This document shows positions 453 to 4,426 of a stretch of 4,426 bases of DNA, piece by piece (within the stretch, counting starts at the first letter, position 1; each line of letters starts with the position of its first letter). The DNA comes from a virus (Duplodnaviria; Heunggongvirae; Uroviricota; Caudoviricetes). The notes beneath the pieces were generated by a model that saw only the letters and a list, made by a program, of their open reading frames with translations, was not told the DNA's origin and made no database searches. The stretch lies in IMG/VR virus record IMGVR_UViG_3300039368_000117; one strand, given 5' to 3'. The position numbers and the translations under genes are program-made.

Positions 453-930
453 CGGATGCTTTCGCGATTTCAGTTTTCACAGCATCAAGATGTACGGGTG
501 ATATATCAGGGTATTTACGCTGCAGTGTCTGAGGGACACGGACAAGGATCCCTGATATATTCTGTGCCACTCGCTGAAAGATGTAGGTAAATAACTCCGT
601 CTCGAGGACAAGGCCTTCCTCACGAGCATTTTTCAGCTCCTGTGCATCGGCCTGTGCCTTCGTCAGTCGGTAACGTTCGTAATCAATGGTGCAGGGCTGA
701 AGGTCTGATTCGCTGGCAGCCCTCAAATCCTCGATCTCTTTACGGAGTTTTTCGTTTTCAATATCAGCTTCCCTCTGCGCATACCACTGAATGGCAGCAG
801 TTGTATCAAAAACTGATTCAGTCCCTTTCCCTCCACCAGAAACTAGTGGTAACCCCTGACTCTGCCAGGCGGTGATGGTCCTGACATCAACGCCAAAAAT
901 ATCGGCCAGTTTTTTCTTATTGACGTTCAT
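382..930 (-). CDS. Terminase small subunit, lambda Nu1 family (NohA/NohD-like DNA-packaging protein)
   Basis: 182-aa ORF beginning [28 protein letters not shown] (the Nu1 winged-HTH region), with …[23 protein letters not shown]…[16 protein letters not shown]… closely paralleling lambda Nu1 (181 aa) from memory. ATG at 928..930 is preceded on the minus strand by GGGGGAG. Lies immediately downstream of the cos site and overlaps the large-terminase start. Confidence 0.9.
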
Positions 931-939
931 ACACTCCCC

Positions 940-1099
940 CGGGAACCAGAAAGGATCTGAAAATGGCGTTTTCTAACAAAAACAGCCTTTGTCAGATCCT
1001 TTTATATTTTTAAAATTCTATTGATAATCAATCAGTTAAAAAGAAGAAGAACGGATCTGATTTTTCCCTAAAAATTTTCATAAATAGCGAAAACCCGCG
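940..1099 (-). promoter_or_regulatory. cosB-like terminase-binding region with three TCAGATCC repeats and an IHF-consensus site
   Basis: Minus-strand sequence next to cosN reads CGCGGGTTTTCGCTATTTATGAAAATTTT…CCGTTCTTCTTC, near-identical to the lambda left end from memory. An 8-bp element occurs three times (ggatctga at 953..960 and 1053..1060; tcagatcc at 992..999), resembling the R1/R2/R3 arrangement. AATCAATCAGTTA at 1026..1038 fits the IHF consensus WATCAANNNNTTR. Confidence 0.6.
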
Positions 1100-1111
1100 A
1101 GGTCGCCGCCC
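1100..1111 (-). other. cosN, the 12-nt cohesive-end sequence (GGGCGGCGACCT on the minus strand)
   Basis: Plus strand 1100..1111 is aggtcgccgccc, whose reverse complement GGGCGGCGACCT is exactly the lambda cohesive end. Flank 1112..1145 (ccgtaaccggtcggatcgccggaaaggaccc) resembles the lambda right end / cosQ side from memory. Confidence 0.85.
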
Positions 1112-1223
1112 CGTAACCGGTCGGATCGCCGGAAAGGACCCGCGAAATGATAATTATTATCATCTATATAAGGTTTATCACAACATGTGTGTACGCCATC
1201 AAACCACGAGAAATAATCAATTA

Positions 1224-1256
1224 TGACGCAGGTATCGTATTAATTGATCTGCGTCA
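1224..1256. promoter_or_regulatory. Imperfect inverted repeat (TGACGCAG-N17-CTGCGTCA) about 60 bp upstream of the RHH-like ORF; candidate operator
   Basis: tgacgcag at 1224..1231 and ctgcgtca at 1249..1256 are exact reverse complements with partial extension into the flanks. A GATAAT -10-like hexamer sits at 1279..1284 and GGGGA precedes the ATG at 1318. Confidence 0.3.
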
Positions 1257-1317
1257 AATTAACGTAAAAGCAACTTCAGATAATACAAATCAGCAACACT
1301 GAATATGGGGAAACATT

Positions 1318-1503
1318 ATGTCATCAAAGAACAGAACCCGCAGAACAACAACCCGCAACATCCGATTTCCAAACCAGATGATTGAACAAATTAACATCGC
1401 TCTTGATCTGAAAGGTTCAGGAAACTTTTCAGCGTGGGTTATTGAAGCCTGCAGAAGAAGGCTGTCAACAGAGAGTTCGGGTATGAATTACATAATTAAG
1501 TAA
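1318..1503 (+). CDS. Small basic ribbon-helix-helix-like protein, homolog of the ORF at the lambda right end (possibly YlcI/DUF3950-like)
   Basis: 61-aa ORF MSSKNRTRRTTTRNIRFPNQMIEQINIALDLKGSGNFSAWVIEACRRRL… has a basic N-terminus, an alternating polar/hydrophobic segment and two short helices, as in Arc/MetJ-type folds. Gene and upstream DNA closely resemble the lambda right-end region next to cos as I recall it. The DUF3950/YlcI name is from memory only. Confidence 0.7.
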   Translation: MSSKNRTRRTTTRNIRFPNQMIEQINIALDLKGSGNFSAWVIEACRRRLSTESSGMNYIIK

Positions 1504-1635
1504 CATGGTGTTCACAGAACACGCAGTTACCGGACACATCAGTTTTCCATTCGCTCCCTGGCAGTACAGGCTTCCCCTCTGACGGGATAGCCTGAAAAAA
1601 TAACACAGAAAATTATTTGTTATAATTAATATAAC

Positions 1636-1776
1636 TTACTCAAAAAAAAGCGACGAGAAAATCAGCATCAACGAACAATAAGCGCCAATACGTGATAACA
1701 AATGGCAGCCATATTTATCTGCAGTATAAGCAATGGACAGGATAACCACTCCAGAAACCGTCAGCATAAAATCCAT
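1636..1776 (-). CDS. Candidate 46-aa hydrophobic micro-protein (unverified small ORF)
   Basis: Hand translation of the minus strand: ATG (plus 1774..1776) preceded by GGGGAAG, giving MDFMLTVSGVVILSIAYTADKYGCHLLSRIGAYCSLMLIFSSLFFE, stop at 1636..1638. Two hydrophobic stretches. Sits in an AT-rich segment; could be chance. Confidence 0.2.
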   Translation of the reverse strand: MDFMLTVSGVVILSIAYTADKYGCHLLSRIGAYCSLMLIFSSLFFE

Positions 1777-2033
1777 TTGAACTTCCCCGGACAAAATCGA
1801 CTCATCTAAAGATTTACAGCTCTTTTTATTATCAATATGTTAAAAGTAAAATAAACAGATGTTCAATAACACGAATACAAAAACGTGCTGAAATTCAATG
1901 AATCCATTTCTGTGTCATCAATTAATAGTGATAAACATCCGGCTTCTTCCACCATCGCACCGGACAGGCGACTATGAGGGGACAACGCCGCGCTCCGTTA
2001 ACGCGGTAAACCCCGGTGTGTGTCGTTTTTGAT

Positions 2034-2596: not shown

Positions 2597-2728
2597 TCAC
2601 CCCAGCAGCCCCGACGAAGACAACATCATCCAGGCCATGGAAAGAAAAAGAGCAACCAGCATTAGTGAAAATGAAATGCCGACAATTACACAGAGGATCT
2701 TCGCCAGCGTTATGAGTTTGTCTGACAT
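2597..2728 (-). CDS. Hypothetical 43-aa single-pass membrane protein inserted between endolysin and Rz
   Basis: ATG (plus 2726..2728) preceded by AGGGAGGA with 7-nt spacing; translation [43 protein letters not shown]; the stop TGA (2597..2599) overlaps the Rz GTG candidate start by 2 nt. The ORF-track version (2597..2818) has a Cys/Gly-rich N-terminal extension that looks non-coding. Confidence 0.4.
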
Positions 2729-2742
2729 GCTTAATCCTCCCT

Positions 2743-2925
2743 TCACGATTTCAACGCAATGACCAGTTTTGCCAGCCCATACAGCATCGGGGACACAGCA
2801 ACACCGACCGCCACCCACTTAATGGCAAAAGCCAGTGCTCTGCTGATGTCATCAGTTACAGGCGCTTTCAGTTCAAGGCCGTTTTTCATAGTCAACCTCA
2901 ACAGAATTCGTTTATACTTTTCCAT
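2743..2925 (-). CDS. Hypothetical 60-aa protein with basic N-terminus and C-terminal hydrophobic segment
   Basis: ATG (plus 2923..2925) preceded by AAGGGAGAAC; translation [60 protein letters not shown]; ends 14 bp upstream of the 43-aa ORF on the same strand. The ORF track extends it to a GTG at 2958. Confidence 0.4.
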
Positions 2926-2958
2926 GTTCTCCCTTGCCTTATCCAAGGTCAGAAACAC

Positions 2959-2992
2959 AAAACCCCGCTTGCAGCCAACAAACGGGGTTTTT
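2959..2992. terminator. Terminator-like hairpin between endolysin stop and the small ORFs, with T-rich flanks on both strands
   Basis: aaaaccccg (2959..2967) pairs with cggggtttt (2983..2991); an inner 3-bp stem (ttg/caa) leaves a 7-nt loop. Followed on plus by ttttt-acttttatt and on minus by ttttgtgttt. The GC core is only 5 bp, so strength is uncertain. Confidence 0.35.
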
Positions 2993-3081: not shown

Positions 3082-3615
3082 TTATTTGTCAATTCCCCAG
3101 CACGCCAGCGCGCTCTCCTGGTCACGCCGTGAGACCTGTCCATAGCAGTTATTTGAACGAATACGGCAGTCTCTGCCACCGTCCTTAATCCACCAGCGAA
3201 TCGCCTCACATGCTCCCCTGCGATCGCCAGCATTAATTCGTCTGTAAAACGTCGACGGGAAACACTTACCGGGACCAATGTTGTACGGACAGAATGACGC
3301 GATCCCCGCTTTCTGGGGTTCGGTCAATGGCACTTTGATGTTTTTCTCCACCCATGCCAGCGCCTTATCACGCTCAATGGCGTTAACCCGGTCGCATTTT
3401 TCCTTCGACAACTTCATGCCCGGAACGACAGGTTTGCCATCCACCAGGATGGCACCGCGGCAGATGGTCCAGATACCCGCGCCATCACGGTATGCCGTGG
3501 TGTGGTTACCTTCCTTTTCATCCAGAAACTGGTCGAGAATGTCAGGCGCAGGCGCACCAGCGGCAATCAGCGCCAGAACGGCAGCCGACAGGCCGTATCT
3601 GATTTTTGCGTTCAT
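3082..3615 (-). CDS. Phage endolysin, T4-lysozyme-like (GH24) with N-terminal SAR (signal-anchor-release) domain
   Basis: 177-aa ORF with an Ala/Gly-rich weakly hydrophobic N-terminus (YGLSAAVLALIAAGAPA) followed by the E…D…T catalytic motif region EKEGNHTTAYRDGAGIWTICRGA. Resembles phage 21 R21 and Qin/DLP12-type prophage lysozymes from memory. Sits between the pinholin and Rz in a lysis cassette. No obvious Shine-Dalgarno upstream of the ATG. Confidence 0.9.
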   Translation of the reverse strand: MNAKIRYGLSAAVLALIAAGAPAPDILDQFLDEKEGNHTTAYRDGAGIWTICRGAILVDGKPVVPGMKLSKEKCDRVNAIERDKALAWVEKNIKVPLTEPQKAGIASFCPYNIGPGKCFPSTFYRRINAGDRRGACEAIRWWIKDGGRDCRIRSNNCYGQVSRRDQESALACWGIDK

Positions 3616-3720
3616 GGATATTTATCAGGATTTATCGGTTTCTGAGCCCTGGATATGTTTATCAGTTCCAGCCTGTTGCCTCAGGCTGCTAACAGGTCAA
3701 TACAATCATGAGGATTATTT

Positions 3721-3993
3721 ATGGACAATAACACCATTTCTCTACAGGAGTTGCTCGACAGCATTTCCAGGCTTCGGGAAGACGTGAATACCCTTACCGT
3801 CGCCTTCTCATATCTGGCATTCTCAATTCCAAGGGAACAGATGCAATCAACGCTGGCATCAATCCAGTTTGAATCATGCAATCCCAAATGGTCTCAGGAA
3901 CAACAAGACTCTTTCAGGCGGCTTGCTGTATTACTGGATGAAAAATATGCTGGTAAAATTACCATTTCGGCGGACTCTTCAGAGAACCCGTAA
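3721..3993 (+). CDS. Hypothetical 90-aa protein on the strand opposite the lysis genes (candidate moron)
   Basis: ATG at 3721 preceded by GAGGA (3710..3714) with 6-nt spacing; TAA at 3991..3993; a hairpin plus T-run follows about 43 bp downstream. No family recognised. Overlaps the 3' end of the 114-aa minus-strand ORF by 35 bp. Confidence 0.4.
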   Translation: MDNNTISLQELLDSISRLREDVNTLTVAFSYLAFSIPREQMQSTLASIQFESCNPKWSQEQQDSFRRLAVLLDEKYAGKITISADSSENP

Positions 3994-4303
3994 TTATTCC
4001 CGGTAGTTTTCCTCTGTAGGTTATCAACACATCCTGCGCCTCTAAAATTACGGGGCGCTTTTCCGGCGACTGCTCATCCCCTTCACATAACCCGGCAGCA
4101 ACATCCAGGAAGACCTGTCTGATGCTCCTTCTGGCTGCTGCCTCATAAAACTCCAGCGCGGCACCTTCAACACGGTCCAGCGAGATGTCCAGGTCAAAAA
4201 TTTCACCGTCAAAGCGTTTTTTGTCCCGTAACGCTAAAGTTACCGTAACTTTATTCTCAAAATTGCGGATCCCTTTCACAATCAGTTTATAGTTTTGAGT
4301 CAT
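3959..4303 (-). CDS. Hypothetical 114-aa protein between holin and endolysin (possibly YdfR/DUF1327-like)
   Basis: ATG (plus 4301..4303) lies 4 nt after the holin stop and is preceded by GGGGAGAG; single Met at the N-terminus; soluble-looking sequence MTQNYKLIVKGIRNFENKVTVTLALRDKKRFDGEIFDLDISLDRVEGAALEFYEAAARRSIRQVF…. The YdfR assignment is from gene-order memory of the K-12 Qin prophage (essQ-ydfR-rrrQ), not from sequence recall. Confidence 0.6.
   Translation of the reverse strand: MTQNYKLIVKGIRNFENKVTVTLALRDKKRFDGEIFDLDISLDRVEGAALEFYEAAARRSIRQVFLDVAAGLCEGDEQSPEKRPVILEAQDVLITYRGKLPGIITGSLKSPPKW
4036..4062 (+). terminator. Candidate intrinsic terminator downstream of the 90-aa plus-strand ORF
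   Basis: gcgcctc (4036..4042) pairs with gggggcgc-side cggggcgc (4052..4058, one G-U pair), 9-nt loop, followed by tttt (4059..4062). Lies antisense within the 114-aa ORF. Confidence 0.3.
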
Positions 4304-4307
4304 TGAA

Positions 4308-4426
4308 TTACTCTCCCCGTGCAGCCTTACGACGGTCCTCTCTGATTTTGAAATACAGGTTAGTCAGATATGTCAGCAGCCCAAACAGCAGACTCCCCAG
4401 CACGCCTATTGCCGCCCACTGAGACG
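4308..4426 (-). CDS. Class II pinholin (phage 21 S21 family), C-terminal part; N-terminus lies beyond the window
   Basis: Hand translation of the minus strand from the window edge gives [38 protein letters not shown] then stop (plus 4308..4310 = tta), almost identical to the C-terminus of S21 as I recall it (…[38 protein letters not shown]). Not in the ORF track because it is truncated by the window edge. Confidence 0.85.

What the first reader, a model, noticed from the sequence alone, without database searches (positions are those of the whole stretch)
3616..4307. Pinholin and endolysin are separated by a convergent ORF pair, one on the opposite strand with its own RBS and terminator
Holin and endolysin are normally adjacent or overlapping. 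Here about 690 bp intervenes: a 114-aa minus-strand ORF translationally close to the holin stop, and a 90-aa plus-strand ORF with a strong GAGGA RBS and a terminator-like hairpin, overlapping the former's 3' end by 35 bp. An independently transcribed opposite-strand gene inside a late operon is a classic moron signature, likely expressed from the prophage to benefit the host or exclude other phages. Neither function is known to me.
Basis: partly seen in the sequence, partly recalled or inferred. Interest (0 to 1): 0.55.

Follow-up and report, generated by a model that had tools for sequence, protein, structure and literature searches.

The report
Opposite-strand accessory gene inside lysis cassette
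A small, genuinely protein-coding gene of unknown function sits backwards between the cell-bursting genes of a common E. coli prophage; it is a swappable accessory cassette of a familiar kind, though it tends to travel with a matching tail on the neighbouring gene.

Summary
Between the S21-type holin stop (4308) and the SAR-lysozyme start (3615) lie a 114-aa minus-strand ORF (3959-4303) and a 90-aa plus-strand ORF (3721-3993). The plus ORF has a GAGGA ribosome-binding site, and the two overlap by 35 nt. Only the "terminator" hairpin is no better than chance.

The 114-aa ORF is YdfR (DUF1327), a resident late-operon gene that also separates holin and lysozyme in K-12 Qin.

The 90-aa ORF is a real gene (Ybl58 / phrog_2411). 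It is intact in 19 sequence variants, with dN/dS about 0.1-0.3. It lies on a 306-bp low-GC cassette (3661-3966) found in 1221 of 5426 complete E. coli genomes. K-12 lacks the cassette, and other prophages carry an unrelated backwards gene at the same site.

So the moron reading is largely supported, but independent transcription in lysogens is untested.

New here: distant homologues sit in other late-operon sites, again convergent with a small gene ending in an ITGSL..PP-like tail. At one tail-operon site, five alternative tails each come with their own backwards gene.

No family, defence-system or fold match gives a function. It is an ordinary kind of element with an unusual linkage worth testing.

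The parts
4308..4426 (-). C-terminal part of a class II (S21-type) holin, a pinholin by homology
   Evidence: PF04971 E 6e-18. In the identical genome locus L001 the full gene encodes 71 aa starting MYQM, a dual-start arrangement like S21.
4079..4303 (-). YdfR N-domain (codons 1-75 of the 114-aa ORF), the resident late-operon gene coupled to the holin stop
   Evidence: DUF1327 E 4.5e-42. It is 80% identical to K-12 YdfR over residues 1-74, after which homology ends. AlphaFold2 gives three strands plus a long helix at pLDDT 62-78. In K-12 YdfR, residues 1-72 bind the RNase E N-terminal half (PMC13232886).
3959..4078 (-). YdfR C-terminal linker, tail and stop (codons 76-114: SPEKRPVILEAQDVLITYRGKLPGIITGSLKSPPKW)
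   Evidence: Absent from K-12 YdfR. Predicted as a disordered linker followed by a beta-hairpin at residues 91-107. An ITGSL..PP-like ending recurs on the convergent partners of distant homologues of the plus ORF. pN/pS is 0.41-0.56.
3721..3993 (+). 90-aa gene A (Ybl58 / phrog_2411 family), a real protein-coding gene of unknown function
   Evidence: phrog_2411 E 1e-58 over its full length. PGAP annotates it as hypothetical protein WP_000369850.1. Intact in 19 variants. dN/dS 0.1-0.3. Third-position bias in variable sites. Family signature ELL..I..LR..VN.L..AFSYLAFS. AlphaFold2 gives three helices at pLDDT 71, with residues 79-90 disordered.
3710..3714 (+). Shine-Dalgarno sequence GAGGA of gene A
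   Evidence: It lies 6 nt before the ATG. AGGA, GAGGA or AAGGA is kept at this spacing in most homologues, including distant ones.
3676..3706 (+). Promoter-like element TTGCCT-19 nt-TACAAT, inside the cassette
   Evidence: Third-best sigma-70 score on the plus strand of the window, at about the 95th-99th percentile of background. TACAAT is kept in most Escherichia alleles. Weaknesses: the spacer is 19 nt, the predicted start falls in the SD, and the stock scan missed it. No expression data.
3631..3659 (+). Second promoter-like element TTTATC-17 nt-TATGTT, in the conserved flank upstream of the lysozyme start
   Evidence: It scores 6.8, which is unremarkable. It is kept (one -35 base varies in L091) in the 8 Escherichia alleles and is retained in the alternative-cassette allele L104. 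Its conservation could equally serve lysozyme translation on the other strand.
3661..3966 (.). Variable cassette: the segment that differs completely from the alternative allele (L104) between near-identical flanks
   Evidence: Alignment of the window with L104. It holds the promoter-like element, the SD and codons 1-82 of gene A. GC is 43-44%. Found in 1221 of 5426 complete E. coli genomes.
3959..3993 (.). 35-nt convergent overlap of the 3' ends of gene A and ydfR
   Evidence: Most Escherichia alleles show the same 35-nt overlap (32 nt in L091). Distant pairs overlap by 7-47 nt.
4035..4057 (+).
   Evidence: A 7-bp stem including one G-U pair and a 9-nt loop. It is not in the minimum-energy fold, and z = -0.95. 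The terminator scan did not call it.
3082..3615 (-). SAR-type lysozyme (endolysin)
   Evidence: PF00959 E 3e-24. It matches solved lysozyme chains, including RrrD (4zpu), and 3hde/3hdf, which I recall to be the phage 21 SAR endolysin. The sequence shows an Ala/Gly-rich N-terminal helix and E-8-D-5-T spacing. There is no SD and no coupled upstream ORF.

Best explanation
The 692-bp spacer holds two different things.

1. ydfR is a resident late-operon gene that follows the S21-type holin.

2. A 306-bp moron-type cassette (3661-3966) sits between ydfR and the SAR-lysozyme gene. It carries, in the opposite direction, a genuine 90-aa gene of the Ybl58 / phrog_2411 family.

Shown:
- The gene is real and under purifying selection.
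- The cassette is a presence/absence and replacement polymorphism between conserved flanks.
- It has foreign base composition and its own ribosome-binding site.

Inferred:
- It is transcribed from its own promoter against the late operon, so its product is made in the lysogen when lysis genes are silent.
- During lytic growth, strong antiterminated late transcription reads through it and would suppress it.
- The product is a small, acidic, soluble three-helix protein with no enzyme-like features, so it most likely acts by binding another protein.
- My preferred target is the conserved beta-hairpin tail (..ITGSL..PP..) carried by the convergent late protein. Here that tail is fused to the YdfR N-domain; elsewhere it ends a short coiled-coil protein. 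The product would neutralise that protein, either the prophage's own leaky copy or the copy of a superinfecting relative.

I put about 0.8 on "real, independently signalled accessory gene". I put about 0.25 on the tail-binding step.
For: Gene is real:
- Open in 19 variants.
- dN/dS 0.1-0.3.
- Codon-position bias 27/17/44, and the only frame without stops in all 10 representatives.
- Relatives of 81-97 aa share a signature motif.

Cassette:
- K-12 Qin joins ydfR directly to rrrQ by an ATGA overlap and lacks the gene.
- L104 has near-identical flanks but an unrelated backwards 86-aa gene, phrog_2572, plus a 62-aa YdfR extension.
- Genome counts among 5426 complete E. coli genomes are 1808 for the direct junction, 1221 for this cassette and 353 for the alternative.
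- GC is 43-44% against 53-60%.

Portability:
- In phiSTEC1575-Stx2k the holin-YdfR114-A block is followed by a different lysis gene set.
- Homologues lie between tail genes M and L, after a gene I read as a gpI-like tail-assembly gene in Yersinia, near terminase genes, on 75 PLSDB plasmids (70 predicted conjugative; the one inspected is IncF) and beside iha.

Signals:
- The SD is conserved, and a promoter-like element scores near the 95th-99th percentile.
- No minus-strand terminator blocks late read-through in 3616-3958.
- Phage Chlobot, deposited as a complete 46-kb phage genome from an environmental sample, has this same layout, so it appears compatible with phage growth.

Tail linkage:
- In 6 of 7 contexts that have a convergent partner, the partner ends in [ILF][TIF]G[SD][LI]..P.
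- At the M-L locus only the tail ..IFGDLKKPPSY comes with gene A. The four other tail types each come with a different backwards ORF.
Against: - There are no transcript, 5'-end or protein data.
- The best promoter candidate has a 19-nt spacer and would start transcription inside the SD. Distant homologues show no consistently strong sigma-70 promoter.
- The terminator hairpin is not significant.
- Homology between the tails is short. A profile built from five stand-alone partners scores YdfR114 at only 6.4 bits, against 5.4 for the best of 300 shuffles.
- The same YdfR tail occurs in L104 with a different backwards gene.
- Gene A survives intact where its partner is degraded (L088).
- Gene A also occurs alone on plasmids, in islands and in a chromosome.
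- So it can function, or at least persist, without a linked tail.
- Pfam, NCBIfam, PADLOC, PDB sequence search and Foldseek all fail to support any function.
Confidence: 0.55

Rival explanations
1. Autonomous moron. The 90-aa protein is a lysogen-expressed cargo gene acting on a host or foreign-phage target unrelated to YdfR. On this reading the tails that accompany it are just what the cassette end encodes when it is read in-frame by the resident gene.
For: Solo copies with no tail remnant are common. They occur on 75 PLSDB plasmids (70 predicted conjugative), beside iha and after an autotransporter gene, and next to a P-type ATPase gene in a chromosome. Gene A is intact in L088, where the partner is broken. 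Selection on A (dN/dS 0.1-0.3) is stronger than on the tail (0.41-0.56).
Against: An ITGSL..PP-like ending recurs on partners whose A genes are only 35-60% identical and whose overlap with A is as short as 7 nt. The motif is therefore not a by-product of A's coding sequence.
Confidence: 0.3
2. Cis-acting insulator. The main role is the convergent transcription itself. A promoter firing against the late operon, and the resulting antisense RNA over the ydfR 3' end and the ydfR-lysozyme junction, would damp leaky expression of the holin and the SAR lysozyme in the lysogen. The ORF would be secondary.
For: Two unrelated backwards genes occupy exactly the same site in different alleles. A promoter-like TTTATC-17-TATGTT lies in the shared flank. 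From general knowledge, SAR endolysins can cause lysis without a holin, so leakiness is costly.
Against: Strong purifying selection on the protein sequence. The same protein family persists in non-lysis and non-phage settings. K-12-type cassettes without any backwards gene are the commonest allele.
Confidence: 0.08
3. Lytic-phase lysis accessory. The gene is expressed during induction and tunes lysis timing or YdfR function, rather than acting in the lysogen.
For: It sits inside the lysis cassette in most Escherichia copies and is kept in phages deposited as complete genomes (Chlobot, phiSTEC1575-Stx2k).
Against: Its orientation opposes strong antiterminated late transcription. Homologues occur in tail operons and on plasmids, with no lysis genes nearby.
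Confidence: 0.05
4. Spurious ORF. It is an annotation artefact on the antisense strand of non-coding spacer.
For: It is small, has no Pfam family, and is labelled hypothetical everywhere.
Against: dN/dS 0.1-0.3, third-position bias, no stops in any variant down to 58% identity, a conserved SD and a conserved family motif in remote relatives.
Confidence: 0.02

Closest known systems
E. coli K-12 Qin prophage lysis cassette essQ-ydfR-rrrQ-rzpQ/rzoQ
   Same: It has the same S21-type holin, a YdfR N-domain 80% identical over residues 1-74, and a lysozyme of the same Pfam family (PF00959) in the same order. ydfR follows the holin directly in both.
   Different: K-12 YdfR is 103 aa with a different C-terminus, and its stop overlaps the rrrQ start (ATGA). 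K-12 has no backwards gene. The window carries the tail plus the 306-bp cassette, and its lysozyme start has neither coupling nor an SD.
Classical lambdoid morons (lambda bor and lom, HK97 gp15), recalled from general knowledge of Hendrix-type morons
   Same: It is a small extra gene with its own expression signals and deviant base composition. It lies between genes that are adjacent in relatives, within the late region, and bor also lies on the opposite strand next to lysis genes. A Bor gene does occur in related loci (L093).
   Different: No membrane or lipoprotein features and no known function. The position between ydfR and the endolysin is unusual. The terminator is not convincing, and prophage expression is untested.
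Pore-forming colicin operons with an opposite-strand immunity gene, and polymorphic toxin C-terminus/immunity cassettes (general knowledge)
   Same: A variable C-terminal segment of one protein is linked to a specific small downstream gene. In pore-forming colicins that gene is convergent and driven by its own promoter. Alternative tail-plus-gene alleles share a constant N-terminal part.
   Different: The variable tails are only 11-62 aa. No toxin domain is recognisable and no toxicity is known. Gene A also occurs without any partner. The same YdfR tail is found with two different backwards genes.
PHROG families of unknown function: phrog_2411 (gene A), phrog_2572 and phrog_6806 (alternative backwards genes)
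   Same: Gene A matches phrog_2411 over its full length at E 1e-58. The alternative cassette genes are likewise recognised phage families.
   Different: These families carry no functional annotation. The alternatives are not detectably homologous to gene A: hhalign probability is at most 7%.

Membership tests
Moron (independently expressed accessory gene in a phage late operon) | Present in some phages and absent in relatives, between otherwise adjacent conserved genes | tested here: met
   K-12 Qin lacks it and joins ydfR to rrrQ. L104 has another gene between near-identical flanks. Genome counts are 1808, 1221 and 353.
Moron (independently expressed accessory gene in a phage late operon) | Own promoter | tested here: inconclusive
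   TTGCCT-19-TACAAT scores near the 95th-99th percentile and is conserved in close alleles. The spacer is long, the stock scan missed it, and distant homologues lack a consistent strong match.
Moron (independently expressed accessory gene in a phage late operon) | Own terminator | tested here: inconclusive
   The hairpin at 4035-4057 plus TTTT exists, but z = -0.95 and no scan called it.
Moron (independently expressed accessory gene in a phage late operon) | Base composition different from its neighbours | tested here: met
   GC is 0.43-0.44 across 3601-4000, against 0.53-0.60 in the lysozyme gene.
Moron (independently expressed accessory gene in a phage late operon) | Expressed from the repressed prophage | not testable with these tools
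   No transcriptome or proteome data are available. Literature searches on the accessions and family names found nothing.
YdfR / DUF1327 (the 114-aa ORF) | Pfam PF07041 match above the gathering score | tested here: met
   142.6 bits against a cutoff of 25, E 4.5e-42. PGAP names it a YdfR family protein.
Ybl58 / phrog_2411 (the 90-aa ORF) | Full-length profile match and family signature motif | tested here: met
   phrog_2411 E 1e-58 over positions 1-90 of 90. The identical sequence is named Ybl58 in UniRef. The AFSYLAFS motif is conserved.
S21 pinholin with SAR endolysin | Class II holin of the P21 S family with a dual start, and a lysozyme with an N-terminal signal-anchor-release helix and E-8-D-5-T catalytic spacing | tested here: met
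   PF04971. The MYQM dual start is seen in the full gene of L001. The lysozyme matches solved lysozyme chains incl. RrrD. The helix and catalytic spacing are read directly from the translation. Membrane behaviour is not testable here.
Known anti-phage defence systems (PADLOC) | Profile match to any defence-system protein | tested here: not met
   No hit at E up to 0.1 for either ORF.
Toxin-antitoxin or polymorphic toxin-immunity pair | Recognisable toxin domain or demonstrated toxicity | tested here: not met
   Pfam, NCBIfam, PDB sequence search and Foldseek show no toxin-like family or fold for YdfR114 or its partners. Toxicity itself is not testable here. Overproducing K-12 YdfR changed only a few transcripts (PMC13232886).
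Toxin-antitoxin or polymorphic toxin-immunity pair | Variable C-terminus genetically linked to a cognate small downstream gene | tested here: inconclusive
   The feature is met at the M-L locus, where five tails each have their own backwards ORF. At the ydfR locus the same tail occurs with two different genes. Gene A also occurs alone.

The most novel reading that the evidence does not exclude
The backwards gene and the C-terminal tail of the convergent late protein form a cognate pair within a polymorphic cassette system of lambdoid late operons. Each allele would supply a short variable tail, grafted onto a constant late protein (YdfR in the lysis cassette, a coiled-coil protein between tail genes M and L), plus a matching small helical protein made in the lysogen. 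That protein would recognise the tail specifically. This would give type-specific self-immunity, or exclusion of superinfecting relatives, analogous to colicin/immunity or polymorphic-toxin/immunity logic. Such a system has not, to my knowledge, been described inside phage late operons.
Probability: 0.2. Interest if true: 0.75.

Novelty: new member of a known kind. Interest (0 to 1): 0.42.

Why it matters
The cassette is in roughly one in five complete E. coli genomes, including ST131, APEC O18 and O55:H7 strains and a Stx2k phage. A gene this common and this clearly selected probably does something for the prophage or its host.

The work also defines a previously unremarked accessory-gene site between ydfR and the endolysin. 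That site has at least three alleles.

It further suggests that small backwards genes in late operons come packaged with matching tails on the neighbouring gene.

If the pairing is functional, it would give a handle on YdfR, so far known only as a candidate RNase E and RNA binder. It would also point to a new type of phage-phage or phage-host specificity system.

If not, this is one more moron of unknown function.

Tried and rejected
- **Family searches on the 90-aa protein.** Pfam, NCBIfam and PADLOC gave nothing. The only sub-threshold hit was the anti-silencing protein Mip at E 0.037, which I dismissed.
- **Structure of the 90-aa protein.** AlphaFold2 gave a three-helix model at pLDDT 71. 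Foldseek against the PDB found no match at E <= 0.001. A PDB sequence-profile search found nothing.
- **Structure of YdfR114.** The model is poor (pLDDT 57.5) and Foldseek hits are meaningless. A PDB sequence search found nothing.
- **RNA families.** A permissive Rfam scan of the whole window found no credible RNA family.
- **Repeats.** The repeat search in the spacer found only short two-copy matches.
- **Terminator.** Rejected as not better than chance.
- **Minus-strand 68-aa ORF 3681-3887.** It has stops in most homologues and no family match, so I treat it as spurious.
- **Coupling ORF for the lysozyme.** A minus-strand frame of 22 codons ending at the lysozyme ATG has no usable start codon.
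- **Homology between gene A and the alternative backwards genes.** Not detectable: hhalign probability <= 7% and phmmer E > 0.03. Only two of the alternatives are related to each other.
- **Profile of stand-alone partners against YdfR114.** Only the 10-residue motif aligns, at 6.4 bits, which is marginal.
- **Species-representative genomes.** The scan gave only Yersinia massiliensis and Escherichia ruysiae.
- **Literature.** Nothing on Ybl58, the RefSeq accessions or the PHROG ids. A general moron/holin search gave nothing relevant.
Full report
**Observation.** The window is the late region of a lambdoid E. coli prophage, with the late genes on the minus strand.
- Gene order along the late (minus) strand is: holin, YdfR, the plus-strand ORF, lysozyme, two small membrane ORFs, Rz/Rz1, a YlcI/YnfO gene on the plus strand, and terminase small and large subunits.
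- The holin C-terminus (4308 to the window end) matches the P21 holin S family. The 114-aa ORF (3959-4303) begins 4 nt after the holin stop.
- The 90-aa ORF (3721-3993, plus strand) has GAGGA 6 nt upstream and overlaps the 114-aa ORF by 35 nt. The lysozyme starts at 3615.
- The holin in an identical genome copy is 71 aa with a MYQM dual start. The lysozyme matches solved lysozyme chains including RrrD, and 3hde/3hdf, which I recall to be the phage 21 SAR endolysin. It shows an Ala/Gly-rich N-terminal helix with E-8-D-5-T spacing. "Pinholin plus SAR endolysin" is therefore a fair reading by homology.

**The 114-aa ORF is YdfR, a resident gene.**
- It matches DUF1327 at E 4.5e-42, and PGAP names it a YdfR family protein.
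- In K-12 Qin the order is essQ-ydfR-rrrQ, with the ydfR stop overlapping the rrrQ start. A gene between holin and endolysin is thus normal for this cassette type.
- Most complete E. coli genomes (4393 of 5426) match some part of the region.
- The window protein is 80% identical to K-12 YdfR over residues 1-74, and there homology stops.
- YdfR is modular. A constant N-domain is followed by alternative C-termini, giving proteins of 103, 104, 114/116 and 176/183 aa.
- AlphaFold2 predicts three strands and a long helix, then a disordered linker, then a beta-hairpin at residues 91-107. Confidence is low.
- The only functional literature found reports that K-12 YdfR binds the N-terminal catalytic half of RNase E through residues 1-72 and co-purifies RNA. 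Overproduction has little effect on the transcriptome (PMC13232886). That fragment coincides with the conserved N-domain.

**The 90-aa ORF is a real gene.**
- It matches phrog_2411 over its full length. PGAP annotates it as a hypothetical protein, and UniRef names the identical sequence Ybl58.
- All 19 distinct nucleotide variants recovered keep the frame open. In the 10 representatives compared, which reach down to 58% identity, no other frame is free of stops in all.
- Variable sites fall 27/17/44 by codon position.
- Pairwise dN/dS is mostly 0.1-0.3.
- The family is small. There were 62 hits in the word-indexed search, almost all Escherichia or Shigella plus one Citrobacter. An exhaustive profile search of 1.84 billion representatives gave 19 clusters.
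- The remote members (81-97 aa) share a clear signature, ELL..I..LR..VN.L..AFSYLAFS...E.L..TI.AL.FES.N.
- A few alleles are frameshifted, as expected in decaying prophages.

**It lies on a swappable cassette.**
- I aligned the window with a locus encoding the 176-aa YdfR (L104). Identity is near-complete through ..SLK(S/T)PP (down to window 3967) and resumes at GGATATGTT (about 3660). The 306 bp in between are unrelated.
- In L104 that space holds a 62-aa extension of YdfR and a different backwards 86-aa gene, phrog_2572. It is also convergent with ydfR and overlaps it. It is not detectably homologous to the 90-aa gene.
- K-12 has neither cassette.
- Among 5426 complete genomes, the K-12 junction is in 1808, this cassette in 1221 and the L104 cassette in 353.
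- The cassette is 43-44% GC, against 53-60% for the lysozyme gene.
- In phage phiSTEC1575-Stx2k the holin-YdfR114-90-aa block is followed by a different lysis set. Phage Chlobot, deposited as a complete phage genome, has the window's layout.

**Expression signals.**
- The SD is conserved in all homologues.
- TTGCCT-19-TACAAT (3676-3706) is the third-best sigma-70 match on the plus strand and sits near the 95th-99th percentile of background. However, its spacer is long and the predicted start falls within the SD.
- TTTATC-17-TATGTT (3631-3659) lies in the flank shared by both cassette alleles and is kept, apart from one -35 base in one allele, in the Escherichia copies. It scores ordinarily, and it may be conserved for lysozyme translation instead.
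- The stock scan found no promoter here.
- The hairpin after the ORF is not significant.
- No minus-strand terminator interrupts late read-through between ydfR and the lysozyme gene.
- The lysozyme start has no SD and no coupled ORF.

**The unexpected part: a recurring convergent partner.** Homologues of the 90-aa gene occur in quite different places.
- Between tail genes M and L.
- After a gene I read as a gpI-like tail-assembly gene in Yersinia massiliensis.
- Near terminase genes.
- Beside a membrane-protein gene that I read as Rnf/Nqr-like.
- In a Citrobacter contig.

In nearly all of these the gene is convergent with a 61-85-aa ORF and overlaps its 3' end by 7-47 nt. That partner has a coiled-coil-like N-terminus (LEQRVEILER, LEQIVSHLEK, KVELLNIEIKELR). 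In 6 of 7 contexts it ends ITGSL.AP, IIGSL.TPP, IFGDLKKPP or LTGDILIP, like the window's ITGSLKSPPKW. Because some overlaps are only 7 nt, the motif is not a by-product of the 90-aa coding sequence.

At the M-L locus the partner has a constant 47-residue N-terminus and five different tails. Only the IFGDLKKPPSY tail comes with a 90-aa-family gene. Each other tail comes with its own backwards ORF of 70-100 aa, and two of these are recognised PHROG families.

The 114-aa YdfR therefore looks like a DUF1327 N-domain fused to such a tail.

**Limits of the linkage.**
- The tail similarity is short. A profile of the stand-alone partners scores YdfR114 at 6.4 bits, against 5.4 for the best of 300 shuffles.
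- The same YdfR tail is found with the other cassette in L104.
- The 90-aa gene is intact where its partner has decayed (L088).
- Solo copies are common on plasmids predicted conjugative (the one inspected is IncF), beside iha and in a chromosome.
- Selection on the tail is mild, with pN/pS 0.41-0.56.

**Protein properties.** The product is acidic, with no signal peptide or membrane span, and is predicted as three helices with a disordered C-terminus. That C-terminus is encoded by the antisense of the conserved YdfR tail. Nothing in Pfam, NCBIfam, PADLOC, the PDB or Foldseek suggests a function.

**Interpretation.**
- The best-supported reading is a moron-type accessory cassette carrying a genuine small protein with its own translation signals and probably its own promoter. 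It is oriented so that it can be expressed when the late operon is silent.
- I favour protein binding as the mode of action, with the tail of the convergent late protein as the most likely target. That step is inference.
- Rivals are: an autonomous cargo function unrelated to YdfR; a mainly cis-acting role of convergent transcription in damping leaky lysis-gene expression; and a lytic-phase accessory role.
- A spurious ORF is excluded by the comparative data.

**Novelty and verdict.**
- The gene and its position are already annotated in more than a thousand genomes as "hypothetical". Opposite-strand morons next to lysis genes are familiar, bor being the standard example.
- As a kind of thing it is a new member of a known kind.
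- What is not, to my knowledge, described is the ydfR-endolysin junction as a multi-allele cassette site, and the recurring pairing of small backwards genes with matching C-terminal tails on late-operon proteins.
- That pairing is suggestive rather than proven, and it can be tested directly by transcript mapping and interaction assays.

Noticed in passing
window 2597-2991: Two small membrane-helix ORFs lie on the late strand: 2743-2958 (phrog_1115) and 2597-2818 (phrog_4906; PGAP calls the shorter versions). A strong terminator-like hairpin at 2959-2991 precedes them. Together they sit between the lysozyme gene and Rz. In K-12 Qin rrrQ overlaps rzpQ directly, so this is a second insertion site in the same lysis cassette. 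PADLOC gives no hit.
   Followed up: partly
window 3616-3666: The lysozyme start has no Shine-Dalgarno sequence and no coupled upstream ORF, unlike K-12, where an ATGA overlap couples it to ydfR. The roughly 50 nt upstream are conserved across different cassette alleles. They contain a TTTATCAGG-like unit present in 1-3 copies in different alleles (three in the E. albertii locus L091).
   Followed up: partly
L104 2501-3353 (E. coli CP026836): This is the alternative allele at the same site. YdfR is 176 aa, with the same tail plus a 62-aa helical extension. A different convergent 86-aa gene (phrog_2572) overlaps it by 53 nt. The allele is present in 353 of 5426 complete genomes.
   Followed up: partly
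L111-L124 about 1459-2110 (IMG/VR contigs, between tail genes M and L): A small late-strand gene has a constant 47-residue coiled-coil N-terminus and five alternative C-terminal tails. Each tail is paired with its own convergent backwards ORF of 70-100 aa. Two of these backwards ORFs (L115, L121) are related to each other, and some match phrog_6806 or phrog_23209.
   Followed up: partly
L109 3512-3781, L110 3521-3805, and 75 PLSDB plasmids: Solo copies of the 90-aa family, with no convergent partner, lie on E. coli plasmids (70 of 75 predicted conjugative; L109 is IncF) after an autotransporter gene and beside the iha siderophore-receptor/adhesin gene. They are flanked by IS remnants.
   Followed up: partly
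L088 and L089 1589-3664: In this lineage the holin is followed by the 90-aa gene without an intact YdfR or partner. The tail frame is still readable but is cut off by a stop or frameshift. A ParD/ParE-like pair lies downstream of the lysozyme gene.
   Followed up: partly
L004 (phage phiSTEC1575-Stx2k) 1785-3803: The S21 holin, YdfR114 and 90-aa gene block is followed by a second, unrelated lysis set (two holin-like genes and an M15 peptidase) rather than a lysozyme. The YdfR N-domain here is itself mosaic, with residues 1-40 replaced.
   Followed up: no
proteins P0037, P0049, P0051, P0061: Some alleles of the 90-aa gene are frameshifted, three of them just after ..NPKWS, giving 94-aa products with an unrelated C-terminus. 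These are probably pseudogenes in decaying prophages.
   Followed up: no
window 4079-4303 versus K-12 YdfR: The mosaic breakpoint in YdfR, at about codon 73-75, coincides with the 1-72 fragment reported to bind the RNase E catalytic half (PMC13232886). This suggests the N-domain is the functional core and the C-terminus is exchangeable.
   Followed up: partly
window 900-1900: An AT-rich stretch (GC 0.34-0.41) between the terminase small-subunit gene and Rz holds a plus-strand YlcI/YnfO (DUF3950) gene at 1318-1503 and a small membrane ORF at 1636-1794 (minus strand). The best sigma-70-like match in the window, TTGTCA-16-TAAAAT, is at 989-1016.
   Followed up: no
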